64,000 nt of DNA from Escherichia phage JLBYU32: the sequence record OK272490.1. One strand, given 5' to 3'. The notes under the pieces were generated by a model that ran no database searches, was not told the DNA's origin, and worked only from the letters and a program-made list of their open reading frames with translations. Below, piece by piece: positions 3,658 to 28,640 of this stretch. Made by a program: the position numbers and the translations under genes. Position 1 is the first letter of the stretch, and each line of letters opens with the position of its first letter.

Positions 3658-4206
3658 ATGAAGAAGTTGATTCTAGGTTTGTGCTTAATGTTTACAGCAC
3701 ACTTATCTTATGCAGTTGACTGCCCAGAGCTATCAATTAGCCAAAAAGTAAACATGTTAAAAGCTTACCAGTATGGTGAGAATAATATGGGTAAAGGTTG
3801 GGGTATCACTCTAGCTGCTATAGCCTTACAAGAGTCAGAGTTAGGTCTGAAGGTAGAGAATAAAAAGACACACGATTATGGTATTTTCCAGAATCACTTG
3901 AAGACTGTTGTAAAGCGTAACAAAATTAGTCCTAATGTTGCTAAAAAGAAACTCTTAAAAGACTTTGACTATGCTGCGAAGGAGACTCACAAAGAGCTTG
4001 AGTTTTGGACAAAGGTGCATGGTCAACCAAAGTCAAAGAAGACTTTACAAAAAGTTTTAGCATCATATAATGCTGGGTATTCGTACAAAATCCCTAAAGC
4101 TAAGAAATACTCTCAAGATGTCTATAACAATATGAAAGTCATCGCTCAATGTGAATTTGCAACAAACATCTCTAAGGTAAATCATGAAAAAATTAAAAAA
4201 GTCTGA
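3658..4206 (+). CDS. secreted lytic transglycosylase-like protein (SLT domain) with signal peptide
   Basis: N-terminal signal peptide MKKLILGLCLMFTAHLSYA; QESELG...YGIFQ and SYNAGYSY resemble SLT catalytic/AYNAG motifs. Confidence 0.5.
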   Translation: MKKLILGLCLMFTAHLSYAVDCPELSISQKVNMLKAYQYGENNMGKGWGITLAAIALQESELGLKVENKKTHDYGIFQNHLKTVVKRNKISPNVAKKKLLKDFDYAAKETHKELEFWTKVHGQPKSKKTLQKVLASYNAGYSYKIPKAKKYSQDVYNNMKVIAQCEFATNISKVNHEKIKKV

Positions 4207-4879
4207 TGAAGTACTGTGTCATGCTTACGACTTACATCCTCATGAGTTAGGTCTTGATTCCTGTGTATGGACTCCAGAACAGTGTAGGGATTTTGAAGAC
4301 ACTGCAAGAGAAGTTGTATGTTCACTGGAAGAGTTCCACACATCAGAACCAATTGTGAACGTTGTGGACAAAGAGACTGGACAAACTATAGGTGTAAGGC
4401 GTGATAGTTTAGTCATAGTCAATAAAGACCTTGTAGAAAAAGGTAACCTCATCTTAGCAGATATTGATGGCGTTCTTACAAATTTTAATCACGAAGATTG
4501 CTCAACGGAGTTGACTGATGGGTCATTCTCACAGTACACTAATCTTCTTGATTCTGTAAGAGCAAAGCCAACATATGTTTTCAACATTATTGATGCAATT
4601 GCTAATCATGCTGCCGTTGGACTCTTGACAGCAAGAGGTGAATCTCAGAGAATACCTACTGAGATGTTTTTAAGGCACAATATAGAGCATGATTACTTGC
4701 TTTTTATGCGTGGTTTTGGAACTAACTCTATAAGTGCAGAAAGTTTGAAAGTGAGGATGATTCAGTCTTGCATTCTTCCTTACTTTAATATAGTATGCTT
4801 TATAGAAGATACAGAGAATAATGTTAAGAAGGTAAACAGAATCCTTCCACACATTAAAACTATGTTAGTTAAACATTGA
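4184..4879 (+). CDS. hypothetical protein, possible HAD-family phosphatase
   Basis: LILADIDGVLTNF resembles HAD motif I (DxDGxL); GLLTAR possible motif II; weak. Confidence 0.35.
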   Translation: MKKLKKSDEVLCHAYDLHPHELGLDSCVWTPEQCRDFEDTAREVVCSLEEFHTSEPIVNVVDKETGQTIGVRRDSLVIVNKDLVEKGNLILADIDGVLTNFNHEDCSTELTDGSFSQYTNLLDSVRAKPTYVFNIIDAIANHAAVGLLTARGESQRIPTEMFLRHNIEHDYLLFMRGFGTNSISAESLKVRMIQSCILPYFNIVCFIEDTENNVKKVNRILPHIKTMLVKH

Positions 4880-5366: not shown

Positions 5367-5389
5367 AGGCTCCTTCGGGAGCCTTTTTC
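5367..5389 (+). terminator. rho-independent terminator
   Basis: AGGCTCC-TTCG-GGAGCCT hairpin followed by TTTTT. Confidence 0.75.
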
Positions 5390-6186: not shown

Positions 6187-6513
6187 ATGCAGATTAATGG
6201 AAGAGATTTTGTAGCCGTTTACTACGAGAAAGATAAAGAAGTTGGCGTAGCACAAGTATCTTATGGCAATGGTAAGTGGTTGTATGGGACAATCGCAGTA
6301 GTTGGAACAAGAAGTGATACAAAAACTTTTAAAGACTGTGTTGACCTTCTTGAAGAATCCATCCATAATCATTGGTGTCTGATATGGATGACTGACAACG
6401 AAGTGATAGAACGCTTCAAAAAGATTGGTATCAACATTGATAGCATTGAGCATGTTGACTTGTATGAGCTAACTGAGAAGGTAAACTATGAAAGTAATAC
6501 TAGCCAGAGATAA
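6187..6513 (+). CDS. hypothetical protein
   Basis: ORF in tightly packed + strand array. Confidence 0.5.
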   Translation: MQINGRDFVAVYYEKDKEVGVAQVSYGNGKWLYGTIAVVGTRSDTKTFKDCVDLLEESIHNHWCLIWMTDNEVIERFKKIGINIDSIEHVDLYELTEKVNYESNTSQR

Positions 6514-6721
6514 AAAGACCCGTAAGATTGTACGTTCAGCAGTATTCATAGGGAGAGATGAAGTTGTACCGTTTGCAGGGGAAGATGTGCTAACTTATAA
6601 GAAGGGTTTAAAACGTAAATTCAGTGACCGTTTACGTGGCTTCATCTCTGAACCATTAGAAGATTTCAAAAGTCGCTGTGGCGAAGGCATCATCATTCAA
6701 GAGGCAATTATTCATGGCTGA
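6488..6721 (+). CDS. hypothetical protein
   Basis: ORF. Confidence 0.4.
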   Translation: MKVILARDKKTRKIVRSAVFIGRDEVVPFAGEDVLTYKKGLKRKFSDRLRGFISEPLEDFKSRCGEGIIIQEAIIHG

Positions 6722-6914
6722 TTTCTGCAAAGATTGTGCTATCGAAATGTTCGGACGTGATACAGGTGACTTAAAAGGTCTCATCACTGAAGATGACTTT
6801 AAAGCTGGTTATGCAATGCCAGTAATCTGTGAAGGTTGTGGATGTATCTGGGTAGACCATGAAGGACAACGTGTAAAACCTTCAGAAGATAAAGAATCTT
6901 GGGAGAGATGTTAA
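6678..6914 (+). CDS. hypothetical Cys-rich (zinc-ribbon-like) protein
   Basis: CKDC ... CEGCGC cysteine pairs. Confidence 0.4.
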   Translation: MAKASSFKRQLFMADFCKDCAIEMFGRDTGDLKGLITEDDFKAGYAMPVICEGCGCIWVDHEGQRVKPSEDKESWERC

Positions 6915-7700
6915 ATGGGTATTGTAAAAATCATCAATGGGGATATCTTCTCCGCATTTGATAAAGGTAAGTTTGATATTATTGGTCACGGTTGCAACTG
7001 TATGAACTTAATGGGTGCGGGTATCGCTGACAAGATTTCTAAACTTTACCCAAAAGCATATGAGACCGATACAGAAGCTTATCTGTATGCAGGTGGTATA
7101 GGTCACAAACCCTGTGAAAATTTACTAGGAAATTTCTCTGTAGCACGTTTAGAACAAGGCCGTATAGCTAATCTTTACACTCAGCTTAAGACTGGTAAAG
7201 ATGCCCGATACAGTGCTTTAGAGTCATCTTTGAAACAGCTTAACAGATACTGTGAAGTTAATCAGTTGAAGAAAGTCGGGTTACCTATGATTGGTGCAGG
7301 TATCGGTGGGCTAGACCCTCAAGCCGTCACAGTTATCATTAATCAGGTGATGAAGAGTGTAGATGTGTATCTGTATGTTTATGAAGGAGAGATGTACCAC
7401 AAGTTACGCTCAGGTTGGAAGAACTACTGTGAACCAGAATACTTTGCAGGTGTAGTAACGTTCACAGATAATACAGTTACCCTCTTCAGACGAAGAAAAG
7501 GTAAGATACATCAAAGTAACCCTCCGGTTGAAAAGATGTCTCTGAGTAACGCTCTAGTTACCCACCTGTCGAAGAGCAATCACAGGATTGCAGTAACATT
7601 TGGTAGTGATGCAGACACTTATATCTATGCAAGAACTGATGAGGATATCGAGACAGTTTTCTCTTCTCCAGAAGTTATCTTCTTAGACGCAAAGAACTAA
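6915..7700 (+). CDS. macrodomain protein (TARG1/OARD1-like ADP-ribose processing domain) with C-terminal extension
   Basis: DIIGHGCNCMNLMGAGIADKI resembles TARG1 HCISEDCRMGAGIA signature; second glycine-rich loop PMIGAGIGGLDP. Confidence 0.5.
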   Translation: MGIVKIINGDIFSAFDKGKFDIIGHGCNCMNLMGAGIADKISKLYPKAYETDTEAYLYAGGIGHKPCENLLGNFSVARLEQGRIANLYTQLKTGKDARYSALESSLKQLNRYCEVNQLKKVGLPMIGAGIGGLDPQAVTVIINQVMKSVDVYLYVYEGEMYHKLRSGWKNYCEPEYFAGVVTFTDNTVTLFRRRKGKIHQSNPPVEKMSLSNALVTHLSKSNHRIAVTFGSDADTYIYARTDEDIETVFSSPEVIFLDAKN

Positions 7701-7761
7701 GAAACTCTGTAGTATATTCACAATAGACTAAGCCTTTCTTATCTGGTAAATTTTTCAGGTA

Positions 7762-7965
7762 AGGAGGGCTTTTTCATTTCAGATTTGTGCAGGTAGAGTT
7801 CTGTAGAGAAATCTATAGAGAAAATTTTGAACTCCAAAGAGAAAATTCATTTTCAAACTGTGCAGGTAATCTCCAAAGAGCTTTTTCATTTTCAAAACGT
7901 GCAGACCCCGCTCAGGTCGGGCAAGAAAAATCATTTTAGAATTGTGCAGGTAGGTGGGTGCAGGT
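7762..7965 (+). repeat. four direct repeats of ~TTTCATTTTCAAA-N-TGTGCAGGTA in ORF-free intergenic region
   Basis: copies near 7764, 7848, 7884 and 7930 (last with duplicated GTGCAGGT); no ORF >=60 aa in 7701-8208 on the + strand. Confidence 0.7.
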
Positions 7966-23719: not shown

Positions 23720-23796
23720 CTCTGTTTAGCTCAGCTTGGTAGAGCGTTCCGTTTGGGGCGGTAAGGCCGGAGGTTCAAGTCCTCCAACAGAGACCA
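23720..23796 (+). tRNA. tRNA-Pro (anticodon TGG)
   Basis: hand-folded cloverleaf; 7-bp acceptor, T-arm GGAGG-TTCAAGT-CCTCC, CCA encoded. Confidence 0.7.
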
Positions 23797-23803
23797 AATT
23801 AAT

Positions 23804-23881
23804 GTTCCAGTAGACAAAACGGTAAAGTCACCACTCTTTCAAAGTGGATATTTGAGGGCTCAAATCCCTTCTGGAACGCCA
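23804..23881 (+). tRNA. tRNA-Glu (anticodon TTC), atypical T-loop CTCAAAT
   Basis: perfect acceptor and anticodon stems; loop CTTTCAA. Confidence 0.7.
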
Positions 23882-23883
23882 GT

Positions 23884-23963
23884 TTTGACAGAAGACCAAT
23901 TACAGCAAGTTTAATCTTATTCATCTGACACGAAATCGGACAAAGAAGAGATTTGGTCTGGTC
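23884..23963 (+). repeat. tRNA spacer element CAGAAGACC..ACAGCAA ... TTGGTCTGG (copy 1)
   Basis: long-range inverted repeat AGACC/GGTCT; recurs at least 4 times between tRNAs. Confidence 0.6.
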
Positions 23964-23972
23964 ATTAAGAAT

Positions 23973-24049
23973 TGCGGGTATAGAGAAAGGGCGTCTCACA
24001 TGTCTCATTAGCATGGTATCGGCAGGTTCGACTCCTGCACCCGCCTCCA
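23973..24049 (+). tRNA. tRNA-Met (anticodon CAT)
   Basis: anticodon loop CTCATTA; T-arm GCAGG-TTCGACT-CCTGC; 1-72 mismatch. Confidence 0.65.
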
Positions 24050-24050
24050 A

Positions 24051-24117
24051 TTTTGCAGAAGACCGTATGCAGCAATAAACTACTTTTTGCGGATAAAAGA
24101 AAAAACACGGTCTGGCA
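24051..24117 (+). repeat. tRNA spacer element (copy 2)
   Basis: TTTTGCAGAAGACCGTATGCAGCAA ... CACGGTCTGGC. Confidence 0.6.
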
Positions 24118-24126
24118 ATGTATTAA

Positions 24127-24203
24127 GGTTAGGAAGCACATAAGGTATGTGCGGTCGCCTGTTAAGCGAATGGCACAGGGTTCGAATCCCTGACTAACCG
24201 CCA
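24127..24203 (+). tRNA. tRNA-Asn (anticodon GTT)
   Basis: loop CTGTTAA; T-arm CAGGG-TTCGAAT-CCCTG. Confidence 0.75.
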
Positions 24204-24212
24204 AATTTAAAT

Positions 24213-24300
24213 GTGTCGTTATCCCGTAGATGGTAGCGGTGGGGACTGTAAATCCCTTGTCATTGAGACTCGGTAGGTTCGACTCCTACACGGCACACCA
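24213..24300 (+). tRNA. tRNA-Tyr (anticodon GTA), long variable arm
   Basis: 88 nt; loop CTGTAAA; T-arm GTAGG-TTCGACT-CCTAC. Confidence 0.7.
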
Positions 24301-24306
24301 AATAAA

Positions 24307-24384
24307 GGTTATGTAGTTTAATCTGGTTAAAATACTCCCCTGTCACGGGAGATGATGAGGGTTCAAATCCCTTCGTAACCGCCA
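24307..24384 (+). tRNA. tRNA-Asp (anticodon GTC)
   Basis: anticodon stem CTCCC/GGGAG, loop CTGTCAC. Confidence 0.75.
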
Positions 24385-24442
24385 ATTTTGAGAGGGCTAT
24401 TTAGCCCCTCCCTTAAAGAGTTCTTACGAGTATTCTTTAAAG

Positions 24443-24514
24443 GAGCAGAAGACCAAATACAGCAAATACGTATGATATTTTCAAGCCAATTTAATTTTGA
24501 AAAAATTTAAAACT
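24443..24514 (+). repeat. tRNA spacer element (copy 3)
   Basis: GCAGAAGACCAAATACAGCAA ... AACTTGGTCTGGC. Confidence 0.6.
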
Positions 24515-24520
24515 TGGTCT

Positions 24521-24668
24521 GGCTCAACAATTTTACAGAAGACCGTTTACAGCAAAACTTAAACAATCTATTTCTCGGTAAAGAAAAGGAGAAGGTTCGA
24601 TTCCTTCACTCGACAGATGTCGAGTTGGTGTAATGGTAGCACTTAAGATGATAAACAACGGTCTGGTA
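24521..24668 (+). repeat. tRNA spacer element (copy 4) containing a tRNA-like fragment
   Basis: TTTTACAGAAGACCGTTTACAGCAA ... AACGGTCTGG. Confidence 0.6.
24585..24640 (+). pseudogene. tRNA-like fragment: T-arm then acceptor-like hairpin then D-arm-like segment (degenerate or permuted tRNA?)
   Basis: GAAGG-TTCGATT-CCTTC then ACTCGAC-AGAT-GTCGAGT then TGGTGTAATGGTAGCAC; no canonical cloverleaf in normal order. Confidence 0.25.
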
Positions 24669-24817
24669 ATCATCTTTGCAGTAGCTTATGTGGCTAATTA
24701 TGTCGTCCCATGAGTGCCGATGAATTTCCTTAGCATGATTCTAGATTAGCTTAATAGGAAATGACTCTACAGACCCTTTAGCAAGGTCTGCGTAGGTTAC
24801 TGCAAAGATGATTTAAT

Positions 24818-24892
24818 GGAAGTGTAGCAGAATGGTGATGCGGCAGACTTTTAATCTGACAGGCGATGGGTTCGAATCCCTCCACTTCTACC
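24818..24892 (+). tRNA. tRNA-Lys (anticodon TTT)
   Basis: loop CTTTTAA; paralog of tRNA at 26051 (shared T-arm GATGGGTTCRAWTCCCTCC). Confidence 0.65.
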
Positions 24893-24897
24893 AAAAT

Positions 24898-24974
24898 GGT
24901 TCAGTCGCAGATAAGGTAATGCAGGGGTCTCATAAGCCCTATGAATGTGGGTTCGATTCCCATCTGAACCTCCA
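24898..24974 (+). tRNA. tRNA with anticodon CAT (Met, or Ile via lysidine)
   Basis: loop CTCATAA; perfect acceptor GGTTCAG/CTGAACC. Confidence 0.7.
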
Positions 24975-24976
24975 AT

Positions 24977-25051
24977 TGTGGGTTAGCATAAATGGTAATG
25001 CAAACGGCTGATAACCGTTAGAAGAGGGTTCGATACCCTCACCTACAACCA
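24977..25051 (+). tRNA. tRNA-Ile (anticodon GAT)
   Basis: anticodon stem AACGG/CCGTT, loop CTGATAA. Confidence 0.75.
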
Positions 25052-25066
25052 ATTTCAATAAAGTTG

Positions 25067-25095
25067 TTGACATTTAGATGTGACCACTTTATAGT
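25067..25095 (+). promoter_or_regulatory. sigma70-like promoter TTGACA-17-TATAGT inside tRNA cluster
   Basis: consensus boxes; followed by ~200 nt of structured non-tRNA sequence before next tRNA. Confidence 0.6.
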
Positions 25096-25299
25096 AACCT
25101 TAGTTTTCGTTGCGTAGCGTCTATTTTGCAAATTTAAAATAAATGCAAACGACAATGTTTTTCTGGCAGTAGCTTGATAGGCTAAACACCAGTGAGGTCT
25201 TCCAATCCCTCATCAAAGAATTTGGCGTACTAGCCCACGGTATGATTAATAAAGTGGGCATCTTTAAGGGCTTTCTAAGAGAGTCTTTAAAGATAATTA

Positions 25300-25381
25300 C
25301 GGGGCGTATCTCAGCTGTCTTCTAAACAGCCGTTAACCGAGTAAGTGGAGTATGCGGGTTCGAGTCCTGCCGCCTCGACCA
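25300..25381 (+). tRNA. atypical tRNA-like gene (possible anticodon TCT, Arg); fold uncertain
   Basis: good acceptor and T-arm (GCGGG-TTCGAGT-CCTGC) but non-canonical D region; hairpin GCTGT-CTTCTAA-ACAGC. Confidence 0.35.
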
Positions 25382-25524
25382 ATTTAGTTAGCAGATTACT
25401 TAGACGACCTAAGCGGGTCTTCCTGTAGGGAGGTGGTCTGTATCTCATGTTTTCCAGAACATGTAAATAATCTGAGAAGGGGCTTTACAGTGTTGAGATA
25501 ATACGGTAAGCTTCGAATTATAGT

Positions 25525-25606
25525 ATGGGACGATGTTAAGACTCTAAGGCATGAGCAACGGCTTCCAACACCGTTTCAAAGGGGTTCAACTCCTCCGTCC
25601 CATGCC
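25525..25606 (+). tRNA. atypical tRNA, possibly tRNA-Trp (anticodon CCA) with oversized D region
   Basis: perfect 7-bp acceptor ATGGGAC/GTCCCAT, T-loop TTCAACT; candidate anticodon loop TTCCAAC. Confidence 0.4.
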
Positions 25607-25620
25607 AAAGTCTTATTAGG

Positions 25621-25708
25621 GGTAGGTAGCGGCTAATGGTAGCCAAACTGTCTTGAAAACAGTTGCCACTGTAGAGATACGGTGAGGGTTCGACTCCTTT
25701 ACTTACCG
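25621..25708 (+). tRNA. tRNA-Ser (anticodon TGA), long variable arm
   Basis: 88 nt; anticodon stem ACTGT/ACAGT loop CTTGAAA; CCA not encoded. Confidence 0.7.
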
Positions 25709-25855
25709 CCTAATAAGATTTAAAGCCAAGCTTCATTCGGATGTTGCTTTGGTATACCGCGTGTATTGTTGTACACACAGATAAAACACCTAGTAGGTGT
25801 CACGGAGAAGAGATAATATCAAGCTCTCCAAAGGTTCTAGTCACCGGATTAAACA

Positions 25856-25880
25856 AGACTATGCAAAGACCTTTTTAGGT
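25856..25880 (+). terminator. hairpin + T-tract inside tRNA cluster spacer
   Basis: AAGACC-TTTTT-AGGTCTT followed by TTTTAGAG. Confidence 0.4.
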
Positions 25881-25966
25881 CTTTTTAGAGGGCTTCTAAG
25901 GTTATTAGTCGCTTGTTGTGGAACCTTGTTGCTCAGGTTCTTAGAAGTTCTCTAAAAAGATTTAAT

Positions 25967-26043
25967 GCACCTATAGCCCAACTGGTGGAGGCAGCAGACT
26001 TAGAATCTGCTCAGTGTGAGTTCGAATCTCTCTAGGTGTACCA
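25967..26043 (+). tRNA. tRNA with anticodon TAG (Leu by anticodon) but class I (short variable loop) shape
   Basis: anticodon stem GCAGA/TCTGC loop CTTAGAA; 77 nt; discriminator A. Confidence 0.6.
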
Positions 26044-26050
26044 AATTAAT

Positions 26051-26126
26051 GCAGGTGTAGCAAAATGGTTATGCGGCTGACTCTTAATCAGTAAGACGAT
26101 GGGTTCAATTCCCTCCACCTGTACCA
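26051..26126 (+). tRNA. tRNA-Lys (anticodon CTT)
   Basis: loop CTCTTAA; paralog of tRNA-Lys(TTT) at 24818. Confidence 0.65.
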
Positions 26127-26132
26127 AACATT

Positions 26133-26208
26133 GGGGTCATAGTTTATATGGTTAAAATTCGAGTTTTGCAAACTTGGGAACTGAGTTCAATTCTCAGTGA
26201 CTCCACCA
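26133..26208 (+). tRNA. tRNA-Ala (anticodon TGC)
   Basis: G3:U70 wobble pair in acceptor stem; loop TTTGCAA; T-arm CTGAG-TTCAATT-CTCAG. Confidence 0.8.
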
Positions 26209-26214
26209 ATTAGT

Positions 26215-26289
26215 GCATCCATAGTTTAAACGGGAAAATTACAGTCTTCCAAACTGAGGTTGAGGGTTCGATTCCCTCTGGATGCTCCA
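26215..26289 (+). tRNA. tRNA-Gly (anticodon TCC)
   Basis: perfect acceptor GCATCCA/TGGATGC; loop CTTCCAA. Confidence 0.75.
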
Positions 26290-26296
26290 AATTAAT

Positions 26297-26372
26297 GCTC
26301 CTATCGTATAATTGGCTATTACGGTTGCCTTGTAAGCAACTTATCAGGGTTCGAATCCTTGTGGGAGCACCA
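26297..26372 (+). tRNA. tRNA-Thr (anticodon TGT)
   Basis: anticodon stem GTTGC/GCAAC loop CTTGTAA. Confidence 0.8.
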
Positions 26373-26467
26373 ATTCAGAGGTCAAGTGAAAGACCGCTTT
26401 GAGTCAACTGAAGACCGTAACAAATTCCACGGAGTTGAGTTAGCGGCACAACTCCAGACCTCTTTCA

Positions 26468-26543
26468 TACTCGCTTAGTTTATATGGTAAAACATCACCC
26501 TTACAAGATGAAGAAAAAGGTTCAAGTCCTTTAGTGAGTACCA
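26468..26543 (+). tRNA. tRNA-Val (anticodon TAC)
   Basis: T-arm AAAGG-TTCAAGT-CCTTT; loop CTTACAA. Confidence 0.65.
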
Positions 26544-26544
26544 T

Positions 26545-26622
26545 GTTCCAGTATCCCAATTGGCAGAGGATGCAAGCTCAAACCTTGTACTAGTGACGGT
26601 TCGAATCCGTCTTGGAACACCA
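26545..26622 (+). tRNA. tRNA with anticodon CAA (Leu by anticodon), class I shape
   Basis: T-arm GACGG-TTCGAAT-CCGTC; loop CTCAAAC; discriminator A. Confidence 0.6.
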
Positions 26623-26627
26623 ATTTT

Positions 26628-26703
26628 GCAGGATTAGTTCAAATGGAAAGAGCAACAGTCTACGAAGCTGTTAATAGGGGTTCGAATCCCTTATCCTGCG
26701 CCA
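26628..26703 (+). tRNA. tRNA-Arg (anticodon ACG)
   Basis: perfect acceptor GCAGGAT/ATCCTGC; loop CTACGAA. Confidence 0.8.
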
Positions 26704-26722
26704 ATTTAAAGAGGCTATTTAG

Positions 26723-27280
26723 ATGAGATATTTGAAGTATGCTTCATGGATTTTCTTAGCTTTGTTAGAGCCATTTGCAGCAATCTTAGCAGTTATCTTA
26801 GCACCTTTTGTAGTTCCATTCTACAGTGAGAAGAAAGGACACTTACCTTTCGGGTTCAGATGGATGGAGACATATGACAACCCAATTGATGGTGATGAAG
26901 GTCACGTTAAAAGATGGGCTAATATTAGATGGATTGGTAAACTAGGTGTCTACATGCAAAGAGTCGGATGGCTCTGGAGAAACAAAGCTTATAACTTCTC
27001 TTACCATGTATTAGGAAGAGATGTAAAAGATGTTACTAAGTGGAAAGGTAATATCAACGTAAGTTCTGACCCCGAAGATAATCAGACAGGTTATCTCCTA
27101 ATGTGGAACAGTAATGCTTGGGGATTATTCGCTTTTATCCCATCAATTAAAATCTTTGGTAAACAATTTTACTGGAGAATTTATATTGGATGGAAACTAA
27201 AAAGTGTTGTCCCAGAAGAAAGAGCATTCTCAAGGGAAAGAGTTATGTTGGCATTCTTTATTCATCCACTGAGAAAGTAA
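26723..27280 (+). CDS. hypothetical membrane-anchored, Trp-rich protein embedded in tRNA cluster
   Basis: AAAGAGG RBS 8 nt upstream of ATG; N-terminal hydrophobic segment. Confidence 0.55.
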   Translation: MRYLKYASWIFLALLEPFAAILAVILAPFVVPFYSEKKGHLPFGFRWMETYDNPIDGDEGHVKRWANIRWIGKLGVYMQRVGWLWRNKAYNFSYHVLGRDVKDVTKWKGNINVSSDPEDNQTGYLLMWNSNAWGLFAFIPSIKIFGKQFYWRIYIGWKLKSVVPEERAFSRERVMLAFFIHPLRK

Positions 27281-27288
27281 AGATTTAA

Positions 27289-27364
27289 AGGGGATTAGTT
27301 TACAAGGTTAAAACCTCGGTCTTTGAAATCGAAGAAGTTGGTTCAATTCCAACATCCCCCGCCA
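27289..27364 (+). tRNA. tRNA-Gln (anticodon TTG)
   Basis: T-arm GTTGG-TTCAATT-CCAAC; loop CTTTGAA. Confidence 0.7.
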
Positions 27365-27366
27365 AT

Positions 27367-27445
27367 GCTCCATTACTCCAATTGGCAGAGAGGCCAGACT
27401 TAAAATCTGTGTTATGTATCGGTTCGAATCCGATATGGAGTACCA
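27367..27445 (+). tRNA. tRNA with anticodon TAA (Leu by anticodon), class I-like shape
   Basis: T-arm ATCGG-TTCGAAT-CCGAT; loop CTTAAAA; discriminator A. Confidence 0.6.
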
Positions 27446-27450
27446 AATTT

Positions 27451-27526
27451 AGCGGTATAGCATAACTGGCAATGCAGCAGCCTCTGAAGCTGTCCTATTA
27501 AGGTTCAAATCCTTATGCCGCTGCCA
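27451..27526 (+). tRNA. tRNA-Gln (anticodon CTG)
   Basis: T-arm TAAGG-TTCAAAT-CCTTA; loop CTCTGAA. Confidence 0.65.
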
Positions 27527-27557
27527 CTTCTAAGGATTCTTGCGAGAGTCCTTAAAT

Positions 27558-27633
27558 GTGGCCTTATCATAAATGGTAATGACCCATGCTGTGAACATGG
27601 TCTATACGGGTTCAAATCCCGTAGGTCACCCCA
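27558..27633 (+). tRNA. tRNA-His (anticodon GTG)
   Basis: anticodon stem CCATG/CATGG loop CTGTGAA; discriminator C. Confidence 0.75.
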
Positions 27634-27639
27634 ATTTAT

Positions 27640-27715
27640 AGTCCAAGTAGCTTATATGGTTAAAGCGCGTGTCTGAAAAACATGAGAAGAGGGTTCGAAT
27701 CCCACTGGACTACCA
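27640..27715 (+). tRNA. tRNA-Phe (anticodon GAA)
   Basis: loop CTGAAAA; T-loop TTCGAAT; acceptor pairing slightly ambiguous. Confidence 0.65.
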
Positions 27716-27731
27716 ATTTCAAAGGTGCTTA

Positions 27732-28466
27732 ATGAAAGAGATGACAGAACAAGGTAAGGAGATTTTTAATCTCTTAAAAACCGGTAGAGGGTTTTCTAAT
27801 CCCCTTATTACTGGTGCAGCAGTTCTCGGTGGAACCGTAGCTGCCTCTACATCACTTGTAAGTTCTATTAGCTCTGTAACAGACCCTACAATGAAGGAGA
27901 AACTTGTTGCTGCTGGACTTACAACAGTCCTTCTAAACAGCTTTACAACAAGCCTTACAAGCACTACAGCGACTACTAAGACCTTAACAGACTATGGTCA
28001 AAAGTCTATTGATGAGTTTTCATCACGTATGCAGGTAGCAAAGGGGTATTCCAATGTTATGGGTGCAGCAGGGGAACAAGTTGGCTGTACACCGTTTAGT
28101 GGTATTATGGGCGTTGCTACAGAATATGGTCAAAAAGCTATTGACACAATTAACAGTGCACTAGATGACGTTAATGATGTATTAAGTGACTTACAAGATG
28201 CTATTGATAAGGGTCTTGATACTGTTTCTGATTTAGCTAATCAGGCTGTTAGCAAGATTAATGAAGGTATCTCGAAGATTACAGCTTATGCAGATGAAGT
28301 TGTGCAGATGATTGAAGAAGAAGCTGCCCTTATTGCAGAGTACCTTAAAACGAATATCAATGGGTTCTTAGCAGGTATCTTACCAGACTGGTTTGATGAT
28401 GCCTGTAAAACTGGTGTAATTGATACTATTGCAACACCAGAAATGAAGAGCGCATTACAGAAGTAA
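27732..28466 (+). CDS. hypothetical Ser/Thr/Ala-rich protein embedded in tRNA cluster
   Basis: start moved to ATG 27732 (track start 27669 is an alternative start inside tRNA-Phe); ends 1 nt before tRNA-Ser. Confidence 0.5.
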   Translation: MKEMTEQGKEIFNLLKTGRGFSNPLITGAAVLGGTVAASTSLVSSISSVTDPTMKEKLVAAGLTTVLLNSFTTSLTSTTATTKTLTDYGQKSIDEFSSRMQVAKGYSNVMGAAGEQVGCTPFSGIMGVATEYGQKAIDTINSALDDVNDVLSDLQDAIDKGLDTVSDLANQAVSKINEGISKITAYADEVVQMIEEEAALIAEYLKTNINGFLAGILPDWFDDACKTGVIDTIATPEMKSALQK

Positions 28467-28467
28467 T

Positions 28468-28560
28468 GGAAGATTAACCCTAAAAGGTAAGGGAGCAGTT
28501 TGCTAAACTGCCAGTAGCTGAGAAATCGGTGTACCAGTTCAAGTCTGGTATCTTCCTCCA
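28468..28560 (+). tRNA. tRNA-Ser (anticodon GCT), long variable arm
   Basis: 93 nt; perfect acceptor GGAAGAT/ATCTTCC; anticodon stem GCAGT/ACTGC loop TTGCTAA. Confidence 0.75.
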
Positions 28561-28564
28561 ATTT

Positions 28565-28640
28565 GAATCCGTGACAGAAATGGCTATGTGCCTGTCTGCA
28601 AAACAGGTTTATAAGGGTTCGAGTCCCTTCGGATTCTCCA
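28565..28640 (+). tRNA. tRNA-Cys (anticodon GCA)
   Basis: perfect acceptor GAATCCG/CGGATTC; anticodon stem CCTGT/ACAGG loop CTGCAAA. Confidence 0.8.

What the first reader, a model, noticed from the sequence alone, without database searches (positions are those of the whole stretch)
6915..7700. TARG1/OARD1-like macrodomain protein: candidate eraser of ADP-ribosylation
DIIGHGCNCMNLMGAGIADKI closely matches the TARG1 signature (HCISEDCRMGAGIA), and a second glycine-rich loop (PMIGAGIGGLDP) follows. TARG1-type macrodomains remove ADP-ribose from protein and DNA; the DarG antitoxin uses one to reverse DarT ADP-ribosylation of DNA. A phage-encoded copy is a plausible counter-defence against DarTG or other ADP-ribosyltransferase immunity. 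About 100 C-terminal residues are of unknown function.
Basis: partly seen in the sequence, partly recalled or inferred. Interest (0 to 1): 0.65.

Follow-up and report, generated by a model that had tools for sequence, protein, structure and literature searches.

The report
Felix O1-type phage macrodomain ADP-ribose eraser

Summary
ORF 6915-7700 (+) encodes 261 aa, and both quoted motifs are present. The window is a Felixounavirus, and the gene is 85-99% conserved in about 250 related phage genomes, where it is annotated 'phosphatase' or 'macro domain protein'.

**Macrodomain (residues 1-157).** This is a confident macrodomain of the TARG1/DarG/Poa1p/SCO6735 (ALC1-like) class: Pfam Macro E 5e-8, AF2 pLDDT 91, Foldseek TM 0.84 to TARG1. 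It is not a TARG1 or DarG orthologue. The catalytic Lys is an invariant Gln (Q90) and TARG1 Asp125 is Gly. That gives the His/Asn/Gln site described for SCO6735, which does remove thymidine-linked ADP-ribose from DNA.

**Closest characterised relative.** This is T4 Tk.4, with the same PHROG 335 and 34% identity over the whole domain. A 2025 preprint named it AdfM and found T4 needs it to resist DarTG2. No ADP-ribosyltransferase, DarT, Tpt1 or NADAR was found among 49 non-structural ORFs, so it looks like an orphan eraser.

**Best reading (about 0.5).** It is an anti-DarTG2 DNA de-ADP-ribosylase.

**C-terminal domain (158-261).** It folds confidently but has no sequence or fold relatives outside Ounavirinae-like phages. 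It diverges about twice as fast as the macrodomain, and its role is unknown.

**Verdict.** A new member of a known kind, of modest interest.

The parts
6915..7700 (+). Complete ORF, 261 aa plus stop: two-domain macrodomain protein, the orthologue of Bas63 bas63_0095 'putative phosphatase'.
   Evidence: ORF listing. 97-99% aa identity to many Felixounavirus records. Syntenic with bas63_0095.
6915..7385 (+). N-terminal macrodomain (aa 1-157), ALC1-like/TARG1-DarG-Poa1p-SCO6735 class, T4 Tk.4 (AdfM) subfamily.
   Evidence: Pfam PF01661. AF2 model pLDDT 91.4. Foldseek TM 0.84 to TARG1, 0.78 to DarG. 34% identity to T4 Tk.4, E 9e-24. Same PHROG 335.
6987..7028 (+). Loop-1 motif H25-G-C-N28-C-M-N-L-M-G-A-G-I-A38. 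It carries the invariant His25 and Asn28 and the first Gly-rich ADP-ribose loop.
   Evidence: H25, G26, N28, C29, G36 and A38 are invariant in 29 homologues. The motif aligns to Poa1p H23-S-C-N26-C, to TARG1 H32 and to BT1257 H-I-C-N. Asn corresponds to DarG N22 / SCO6735 N27, both needed for activity.
7170..7184 (+). N86-L-Y-T89-Q90 motif. Gln90 occupies the position of the catalytic Lys of TARG1 (K84) and DarG (K80).
   Evidence: N86, T89 and Q90 are invariant. Q90 aligns to TARG1 K84 in phmmer, profile and MAFFT alignments, and to the Gln of BT1257 NMIGQ. SCO6735 Gln85 is stated to be at the K80/K84 position and is essential.
7284..7310 (+). Loop-2 motif P124-M-I-G-A-G-I-G-G132 (diphosphate-binding loop). 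G131 lies where TARG1 has Asp125.
   Evidence: P124, G127 and G129 are invariant. Aligned to TARG1 MPRIGCGLD. DarG G117/G119/G121 bind ADP-ribose.
7386..7697 (+). Linker helix (aa 158-167) plus C-terminal beta-rich domain (six strands and one helix, aa about 175-250). It is an orphan, lineage-restricted domain of unknown function.
6901..6907 (+). Shine-Dalgarno-like GGGAGAG, 7 nt upstream of the ATG.
   Evidence: Read directly from the sequence.
7730..7781 (+). Intrinsic-terminator-like hairpin (17 pairs) followed by a T-run, 30 nt after the stop codon. The macro gene appears to be the last gene of its transcription unit.
   Evidence: Terminator scan. The previous terminator-like site on this strand is at 5367-5384.
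6714..6914 (+). Context only: upstream 66-aa CxxC...CxxC (zinc-ribbon-like) ORF, PHROG 2210. Its stop codon directly abuts the macro start.
   Evidence: bas63_0094. A distant homologue locus (L005) also has a 63-aa CxxC...CxxC ORF overlapping the macro start by 1 nt. No sequence similarity between the two small proteins was shown.

Best explanation
The gene encodes an orphan, antitoxin-like ADP-ribosylglycohydrolase that the phage makes to erase ADP-ribose marks placed by host immunity. The most likely target is the thymidine-linked ADP-ribose that DarT2 (of DarTG2 systems) puts on single-stranded phage DNA to block replication.

**Shown.** The N-terminal 157 residues are a macrodomain of the ALC1-like class and belong to the same phage family as T4 Tk.4/AdfM. 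Its ADP-ribose-binding loops are intact. Its active site is the His25/Asn28/Gln90 type, not the Lys type of TARG1/DarG.

**Inferred.**
- As in SCO6735, Gln90 is held by Asn28 and positions the distal ribose so that a water molecule can cleave the ribose-thymine bond, releasing free ADP-ribose and intact DNA.
- The enzyme acts in trans on whatever DarT2 variant the host carries. No toxin partner is encoded by the phage.
- The C-terminal roughly 100-residue domain packs on the macrodomain as a rigid accessory module. It has few invariant residues and therefore no obvious catalytic site. It probably mediates a protein or substrate contact, and its role is not established.
For: **Macrodomain identity.** Pfam hit, high-confidence model, and best structural matches TARG1, DarG and Poa1p. 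Profile hits to TARG1, DarG, Poa1p, SCO6735 and BT1257 are all at 1e-13 to 1e-17.

**Family link to an experimentally tested anti-DarTG2 factor.**
- T4 Tk.4 is 34% identical across the whole domain (81 bits), falls in the same PHROG 335 and shares the HGCNC, NLYTQ and IGAGIG motifs.
- tk.4 was the single significant HIDEN-SEQ hit on DarTG2, and its clean deletion sensitised T4.
- A second, DarG-like phage macrodomain (PhiKZ gp104) removes DarT2 marks from DNA.

**Active site compatible with thymidine-ADPr hydrolysis.** SCO6735 has Gln at the Lys position. Its Q85A/E and N27S mutants are inactive, yet the wild type removes DarT marks faster than DarG and rescues cells from DarT. [quoted passage not shown]

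**Orphan status.** A Pfam scan of 49 non-structural ORFs of the window found no ART, DarT, Tpt1/KptA, NADAR, SIR2, Nudix or RNA ligase. The Bas63 annotation lists none either.

**Conservation.** The gene is conserved at 85-99% in about 250 Felix O1-like genomes. Enteropathogenic E. coli, a natural host species, carries DarTG (PMC7003065 abstract).
Against: - No activity or phenotype exists for this protein or for any Ounavirinae phage. No paper linking Felixounavirus and DarTG2 was found.
- The T4 evidence is a preprint. It is genetic only, and that protein is only 34% identical.
- The DNA-contacting Lys of DarG (K29) and SCO6735 (K34) is Ala35 here, and the extended 'mobile loop' of SCO6735/BT1257 is absent.
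- The HxCNC motif, including the His that was mutated in the Poa1p structures, is shared with a small-molecule phosphatase.
- Macrodomain substrate range cannot be read from sequence (PMC9503650).
- The extra C-terminal domain, absent from T4 Tk.4, could redirect specificity.
Confidence: 0.5

Rival explanations
1. It is a counter-defence eraser, but for a different macromolecular target. It would remove ADP-ribose from RNA (for example mRNA modified by CmdT-type toxins, or phosphate-linked RNA ADP-ribosylation) or from phage or host proteins modified by other bacterial ADP-ribosyltransferase toxins. The C-terminal domain would supply target recognition.
For: - ALC1-like macrodomains are promiscuous. 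SCO6735 and TARG1 act on both protein and DNA substrates.
- RNA-targeting ART defences exist (CmdTAC, PMC11618068), and RNA ADPr-reversing macrodomains are described (PMC11833690 abstract).
- The extra, rapidly diverging C-terminal domain distinguishes this protein from the single-domain T4 AdfM.
- No phage-encoded ART was found, so any target mark must be host-made.
Against: The only phenotype known for this PHROG family is DarTG2-specific. No feature of the sequence points to RNA or protein rather than DNA. The C-terminal domain has no consistent charge that would suggest nucleic-acid binding.
Confidence: 0.2
2. It is a small-molecule ADP-ribose-derivative hydrolase, as the database name 'phosphatase' implies. 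It would dephosphorylate ADP-ribose-1''-phosphate, deacetylate O-acetyl-ADP-ribose, or destroy ADPR-derived immune signals or toxic metabolites. The released free ADP-ribose could be recycled by the phage.
For: - The HGCNC...MGAGIA segment is the best match to yeast Poa1p (HSCNC...WGGGIA), including the His23 position probed by the 6lfs H23A structure.
- GenBank and PHROG annotations read 'phosphatase' or 'O-acetyl-ADP-ribose deacetylase'.
- Iyer et al. argue that phage macrodomains mainly target soluble ADPr derivatives (PMC9503650).
- Felix-like genomes carry a Prs-like/Nampt-like gene pair 8-10 kb upstream. From my own recollection, not checked here, this resembles the ADPR-consuming NAD+ reconstitution pathway NARP1.
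- A PNK-like gene lies 2 kb upstream.
Against: - The annotations are transferred by homology and were never tested.
- Poa1p Ser30 is Leu32 here.
- No Tpt1/KptA, 2H phosphoesterase or RNA ligase that would generate Appr>p or Appr-1''-p was detected.
- The T4 family member has a macromolecular (DarTG2) phenotype.
Confidence: 0.2
3. It is a non-catalytic ADP-ribose binder (reader or sponge), or an inhibitor that neutralises an ADP-ribosyltransferase by binding rather than by hydrolysis.
For: The canonical catalytic Lys and Asp of TARG1 are absent. DarG, and catalytically dead SCO6735, also inhibit DarT by direct interaction. An extra domain is available for protein binding.
Against: The His/Asn/Gln constellation that is catalytically required in SCO6735 is invariant across 29 homologues. 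That pattern argues for catalysis.
Confidence: 0.07

Closest known systems
T4 Tk.4 = AdfM (anti-DarT factor Macrodomain; preprint 10.1101/2025.11.20.689424)
   Same: Same PHROG 335. 34% identity over the entire macrodomain. Identical HGCNC, NLYTQ and P-x-IGAGIG motifs. Both are phage-encoded orphans with no adjacent toxin, and both carry the historical annotation 'phosphatase/A1pp'.
   Different: T4 Tk.4 is a single domain of 155 aa. The Felix protein carries an additional roughly 100-aa C-terminal domain. The T4 phenotype (DarTG2 sensitivity of the knockout) has not been tested for the Felix protein.
SCO6735 (Streptomyces coelicolor) and BT1257: Gln-type ALC1-like macrodomains (PDB 5E3B, 2FG1)
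   Same: His-x-Cys-Asn motif, and Gln at the position of the TARG1/DarG catalytic Lys. SCO6735 hydrolyses thymidine-linked ADP-ribose on DNA and rescues cells from DarT. Profile E-values are 3e-15 and 1e-14.
   Different: The phage family lacks the 5-6-residue longer mobile loop and the Lys34 equivalent, which is Ala35 here. These relatives are cellular, single-domain proteins.
DarG antitoxin macrodomain (Thermus/Mycobacterium; PDB 5M31, 5M3E, 5M3I) and DarG-like PhiKZ gp104 AdfM
   Same: Macro fold (TM 0.74-0.78). Asn (N22/N28) and the Gly-rich loops are conserved. Two-domain layout, with a macrodomain followed by an accessory C-terminal domain. Role as eraser of DarT2 marks.
   Different: The catalytic Lys80 (FPTK) is Gln here (NLYTQ). 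Only 24% identity and 27 bits to PhiKZ gp104. The C-terminal domain shows no detectable similarity to any solved structure, DarG included. No DarT gene is adjacent.
Human TARG1/OARD1 (PDB 4J5R/4J5S)
   Same: Best sequence and structure match in the PDB. Shares His32/His25, MGAGIA and the PxIGxG loop.
   Different: The Lys84/Asp125 catalytic dyad is replaced by Gln90/Gly131. About 24% identity. Not an orthologue.
Yeast Poa1p ADP-ribose-1''-phosphate phosphatase (PDB 6LFQ-6LFU)
   Same: HxCNC...GxGIA segment including the His23 position. TM 0.75. This is the source of the 'phosphatase' annotation.
   Different: Poa1p has Ser at the Gln90 position (LFTSS), and its Ser30 is Leu32 here. No pathway that would produce Appr-1''-p was found in the phage.

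Membership tests
Macro domain superfamily (Pfam PF01661) | Sequence match above the curated Pfam threshold | tested here: met
   33.3 bits against a cut-off of 22, E 5.2e-8, residues 25-141 covering profile positions 2-117 of 118.
Macro domain superfamily (Pfam PF01661) | Three-layer alpha/beta/alpha macro fold | tested here: met
   AF2 model pLDDT 91.4. Foldseek gives 240 PDB hits at E<=0.001, and the 50 best listed are all macrodomains or proteins designed on a macrodomain scaffold. Top TM is 0.84, normalised to TARG1.
Macro domain superfamily (Pfam PF01661) | Two Gly-rich ADP-ribose/diphosphate-binding loops | tested here: met
   MGAGIA (33-38) and IGAGIGG (126-132). G34 is nearly invariant, and G36, G127 and G129 are invariant. 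Both loops align to the corresponding TARG1 loops.
TARG1/OARD1 orthologues | Catalytic Lys84-Asp125 dyad | tested here: not met
   Lys84 aligns to invariant Gln90 and Asp125 aligns to Gly131.
DarG (DarTG2 antitoxin) | Catalytic Lys80 in the FPTK motif | tested here: not met
   The motif here is NLYTQ. DarG K80 is equivalent to TARG1 K84, which aligns to Q90. PhiKZ gp104 keeps FPTK.
DarG (DarTG2 antitoxin) | Conserved Asn22 needed for turnover | tested here: met
   Invariant Asn28 in HGCN. Equivalence to DarG N22 / SCO6735 N27 comes from the motif alignment and the papers.
DarG (DarTG2 antitoxin) | Encoded next to a DarT toxin gene | tested here: not met
   The neighbours are spanins and small phage ORFs. 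No DarT or ART Pfam family was found among 49 non-structural ORFs.
DarG (DarTG2 antitoxin) | C-terminal DarT-binding domain | tested here: inconclusive
Gln-type ALC1-like macrodomains (SCO6735/BT1257) | His / Asn / Gln active-site constellation (SCO6735 H24, N27, Q85) | tested here: met
   H25, N28 and Q90 are invariant. The Gln aligns with the BT1257 Gln in MAFFT L-INS-i. The SCO6735 residues come from PMC9411070. The SCO6735 sequence itself was not aligned here; its 54%-identical homologue BT1257 was used.
Gln-type ALC1-like macrodomains (SCO6735/BT1257) | Mobile loop after the Gln that is about five residues longer than in TARG1/DarG | tested here: not met
   The loop length equals that of TARG1. 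BT1257 has a 6-residue insertion relative to the phage family.
Phage AdfM, T4 Tk.4 type (PHROG 335) | Membership of the same phage protein family, with full-domain homology | tested here: met
   PHROG 335 matches at E 8e-112 (Felix) and 1.3e-65 (Tk.4) over the same profile positions 53/54-205. BLASTP gives 34% identity, E 9e-24, residues 3-157.
Phage AdfM, T4 Tk.4 type (PHROG 335) | Required for phage growth on DarTG2-expressing hosts | not testable with these tools
   Needs a phage knockout or complementation. Reported only for T4.
Poa1p-type ADP-ribose-1''-phosphate phosphatase | His23 and Ser30 probed as functional residues in the Poa1p structures | tested here: inconclusive
   The His is conserved (H25), but Ser30 aligns to Leu32. 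Phosphatase activity is not testable here.

The most novel reading that the evidence does not exclude
The Ounavirinae-specific C-terminal domain is a new fold that acts as a fast-evolving toxin-binding or targeting module. In that case the protein would be a convergent two-pronged DarG mimic, combining enzymatic erasure by a Gln-type macrodomain with direct neutralisation of DarT2. Alternatively, the domain would be a retargeting module that extends the eraser to another ADP-ribosyltransferase defence.
Probability: 0.15. Interest if true: 0.6.

Novelty: new member of a known kind. Interest (0 to 1): 0.35.

Why it matters
If confirmed, Felix O1-like phages would join T-even and PhiKZ-like phages in carrying macrodomain 'orphan antitoxins' against DNA ADP-ribosylation. 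Felix O1-like phages are widely used for Salmonella and E. coli typing, biocontrol and therapy. That would show that the Tk.4-type (Gln-type) eraser is a general phage counter-defence found in about 5% of sequenced phage genomes (2,794 of 50,697 records have a hit). It would help predict host range on DarTG-carrying strains. It would also replace the misleading 'phosphatase' annotation. The orphan C-terminal domain is the only part that could teach something new about how such erasers are targeted.

Tried and rejected
**C-terminal domain homology.** I tried five searches:
- Pfam;
- phmmer against 1.84 billion representatives (only its own family);
- a profile search of 5.8 billion proteins (one fragment of its own family);
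- Foldseek against BFVD (only phage SUSP2's own orthologue).

AFDB50 was not available. I therefore rejected any named fold assignment. The PH-like resemblance is too weak.

**Charge analysis of the C-terminal domain.** I looked for DNA mimicry or DNA binding and found no consistent sign.

**Strict TARG1 or DarG membership.** Rejected, because the catalytic residues are not conserved.

**A phage-encoded ADP-ribosyltransferase partner or an RNA-repair pathway producing Appr-1''-p.** Nothing was detected in 49 ORFs. ORFs under 70 aa, the structural module and the roughly 23 kb of genome outside the window were not scanned. For that outside region, the Bas63 annotation lists none.

**Literature on Felix O1-like phages and DarTG or macrodomains.** None was found.

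**Rfam on the downstream repeat region.** Only sub-threshold chance hits.

**Limits of the structural work.** Model coordinates are not exposed by the tools, so the domain interface and active-site geometry could not be inspected. The SCO6735 and DarG sequences could not be retrieved for direct residue-level alignment. Equivalences to them rest on BT1257, TARG1 and PhiKZ gp104 alignments plus the cited papers.
Full report
**What the window is.** The region 5000-12000 matches Felix O1 and about 250 related Escherichia, Salmonella, Shigella and Citrobacter myoviruses at 90-95% nucleotide identity. The protein of the finding is 97-99% identical to proteins of many Felixounavirus genomes. The window is therefore part of a Felix O1-like (Ounavirinae) phage genome. 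In those records the gene is annotated 'putative phosphatase', 'macro domain protein', 'O-acetyl-ADP-ribose deacetylase' or 'hypothetical protein'.

**Check of the observation.**
- One ORF runs from 6915 to 7700 on the + strand and encodes 261 aa.
- A GGGAGAG ribosome-binding site lies at 6901-6907. The ATG directly follows the stop codon of the preceding small ORF.
- Pfam's Macro model matches above its curated threshold (33.3 against 22 bits, E 5e-8, residues 25-141). PHROG 335 ('phosphatase') matches at E 8e-112.
- Against PDB sequences the best hits are human TARG1/OARD1 (E 2e-5) and Thermus DarG (E 3e-4), followed by coronavirus Mac1 domains.

**Structure.** I built an alignment of 29 homologues and predicted the structure from it.
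- The AlphaFold2 model has mean pLDDT 91.4 and pTM 0.89.
- Residues 1-157 form a macrodomain. A helix (158-167) leads into a beta-rich C-terminal domain with one terminal helix.
- Foldseek against the PDB gives TARG1 as the best match (E 3e-10, TM 0.84 normalised to TARG1). Next come the Thermus and Mycobacterium DarG macrodomains (TM 0.78 and 0.74) and Poa1p (0.75), with alphavirus and coronavirus macrodomains below them.
- A profile of the family scores TARG1 (8e-17), Mtb DarG (4e-16), Poa1p (1e-15), SCO6735 (3e-15), BT1257 (1e-14) and Taq DarG (4e-13) almost equally.
- I conclude that the family is a distinct branch of the ALC1-like class that contains all of these proteins (class definition from PMC9411070).

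**Active site.** Fourteen positions are invariant in the 29 homologues: H25, G26, N28, C29, G36, A38, P46, G72, N86, T89, Q90, P124, G127 and G129.
- In phmmer, profile and MAFFT alignments, Gln90 sits at the position of TARG1 Lys84 and Gly131 at that of Asp125. The TARG1 dyad is therefore absent.
- DarG Lys80 is the structural equivalent of TARG1 Lys84, and K80A is inactive (PMC5179494). The DarG catalytic residue is therefore also absent.
- This is not evidence of inactivity. SCO6735 carries Gln85 at exactly that position. Its Q85A, Q85E and N27S mutants are dead. Wild-type SCO6735 removes DarT-made thymidine-ADP-ribose from DNA faster than DarG or TARG1 and rescues cells from DarT (PMC9411070).
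- BT1257 is 54% identical to SCO6735. It aligns H-I-C-N with the phage H-G-C-N, and its NMIGQ with the phage NLYTQ.
- The phage family thus has the His/Asn/Gln constellation of the Gln-type enzymes. It lacks their longer mobile loop and the DNA-contacting Lys34 (DarG K29), which is Ala35 here.
- The N-terminal motif HGCNC...MGAGIA is also the best local match to yeast Poa1p (HSCNC...WGGGIA), including the His23 position. That match explains the historical 'phosphatase' label.

**Closest characterised relative.**
- T4 Tk.4 (155 aa, annotated 'phosphatase; A1pp motif') is 34% identical to residues 3-157 (81 bits, E 9e-24). It matches the same PHROG 335 over the same profile positions and shares all three motifs.
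- A 2025 preprint reports that tk.4 was the single significant transposon-sequencing hit when a T4 library was grown on a DarTG2 host, and that a clean knockout became DarTG2-sensitive. The authors named it AdfM.
- Independently, a DarG-like macrodomain of PhiKZ (gp104, also called AdfM) was shown to remove DarT2 marks from DNA and to protect chimalliviruses (PMC13309987).
- The Felix protein is much further from gp104 (24% identity, 27 bits). gp104 keeps the DarG-type TVN/FPTK residues.
- Two mechanistic kinds of phage anti-DarT2 macrodomain therefore exist, and the Felix protein belongs to the T4 Tk.4 (Gln) kind.
- tblastn finds relatives at E<1e-5 in 2,794 of 50,697 phage records, so the family is common.

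**Genomic context.**
- The gene lies downstream of rIIA, rIIB, a PNK-like gene, the two spanin genes and four small ORFs of unknown function.
- It is followed 30 nt later by a strong terminator-like hairpin at 7730-7771. The previous terminator-like site on the strand is at 5367-5384. It is therefore probably the last gene of a short operon.
- I scanned 49 non-structural ORFs of at least 70 aa against Pfam. None matched an ADP-ribosyltransferase, DarT, Tpt1/KptA, NADAR, SIR2, Nudix or RNA ligase family. The annotation of the complete Bas63 genome lists none either.
- The macrodomain is therefore an orphan eraser. It cannot be regulating a recognisable phage-encoded writer, and the phage has no recognisable pathway that would generate ADP-ribose-1''-phosphate.

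**The C-terminal domain.** Residues 158-261 fold confidently, both in the full-length model and alone (pLDDT 83). I found no relatives anywhere outside the family:
- no Pfam family;
- only its own family in an exhaustive phmmer search of 1.84 billion representatives;
- only a fragment of its own family in a profile search;
- only an orthologue in BFVD.

By tblastn it occurs in 242 phage records: Escherichia, Salmonella, Shigella, Citrobacter and 'Felixounavirus' names, plus three named only 'Phage' and one each named Campylobacter and Staphylococcus. Every record listed is a Felix O1-like genome of the Felix, Moogle or SUSP groups, and the two odd-named records were not inspected. More distant metagenomic homologues of 246-252 aa carry a shorter C-terminal extension that aligns with it at about 20% identity. 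One of these sits in a syntenic rIIB...PNKP-like...macro arrangement.

The domain diverges about twice as fast as the macrodomain, for example 47% against 78% and 21% against 42% identity. It has only two invariant residues, Pro174 and Gly179, and no consistent net charge. I infer that it is a non-catalytic accessory or interaction module. By analogy, DarG's own second domain binds and inhibits DarT (PMC11825919; PMC5179494). A toxin-binding role here is attractive but entirely untested.

**Mechanism and alternatives.**
- Best-supported reading (confidence about 0.5): the protein is an AdfM-type anti-DarTG2 factor. It hydrolyses thymidine-linked ADP-ribose on phage ssDNA through a Gln-assisted, water-mediated mechanism.
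- Rival 1 (about 0.2): erasure of ADP-ribose from RNA or protein targets of other ART toxins.
- Rival 2 (about 0.2): hydrolysis of soluble ADP-ribose derivatives, which is the 'phosphatase' reading. The Poa1p-like motif supports it, as does the argument of Iyer et al..
- Rival 3 (under 0.1): non-catalytic binding.
- Sequence alone cannot separate these, because ALC1-like macrodomains are promiscuous.

**Novelty and verdict.**
- The macrodomain identity is already in public annotations.
- Macrodomain counter-defence against DarTG2 has been published for T4 and PhiKZ.
- No paper on Felix O1-like phages and DarTG or macrodomains was found.
- The finding is a correct and sensible call, but it is a new member of a known kind.
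- What remains open is the orphan C-terminal domain, and whether Gln-type phage macrodomains really work like SCO6735.

Noticed in passing
window 7765-7949: There are four direct copies of a unit TCATTTYMRANNTGTGCAG(GT), starting at 7774, 7847, 7886 and 7931. They sit immediately after the macro gene's terminator, in the roughly 500-nt gap before ORF 8209. The pattern gives 4 matches against 0.26 expected and occurs nowhere else in the 64 kb. No Rfam family matches. In Bas63 two tiny minus-strand ORFs are annotated here. It could be a regulatory or operator array or a small-RNA region.
   Followed up: partly
window 6714-6914; L005 5810-6001: The 66-aa ORF just upstream (PHROG 2210) has a CxxC...CxxC zinc-ribbon-like pattern, and its stop codon abuts the macro start. 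In a distantly related phage contig (macrodomain about 42% identical) a 63-aa CxxC...CxxC ORF likewise overlaps the macro start by 1 nt. This may be a conserved small partner, or coincidence. No sequence similarity between the two was shown.
   Followed up: partly
window 6488-6721: This 77-aa ORF (PHROG 6082, unknown function) has a weak, sub-threshold Pfam hit to the C-terminal end of Gad1, the Gabija anti-defence protein (E 0.037, 14 bits against a cut-off of 27). It is probably chance, but it lies in the same operon as the macrodomain gene.
   Followed up: no
window 23720-28640: A cluster of 25 tRNA genes on the + strand, with a few small ORFs interspersed. This is typical of Felix O1-like phages.
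   Followed up: no
Bas63 genome MZ501086 52746-55454 (L004 2747-5455), outside the window: Felix-like genomes carry an adjacent 'ribose-phosphate pyrophosphokinase' and 'nicotinamide phosphoribosyltransferase' gene pair, 8-10 kb upstream of the macro gene. From my recollection, not checked here, this pair resembles the ADPR-consuming NAD+ reconstitution pathway NARP1. A macrodomain releasing free ADP-ribose could feed it.
   Followed up: no
protein P0026 (339 aa, metagenomic): A homologue of the macrodomain (34% identity) is fused to a different C-terminal region carrying Pfam PF20274 instead of the Ounavirinae C-terminal domain. The macro core is therefore combined with alternative accessory modules.
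   Followed up: no
window 4184-4879: This ORF is annotated 'polynucleotide kinase' in Bas63. It gave no Pfam hit at E<=0.01 in the batch scan, and the syntenic gene in L005 has only a weak HAD_PNKP hit. The PNK annotation therefore looks soft.
   Followed up: no
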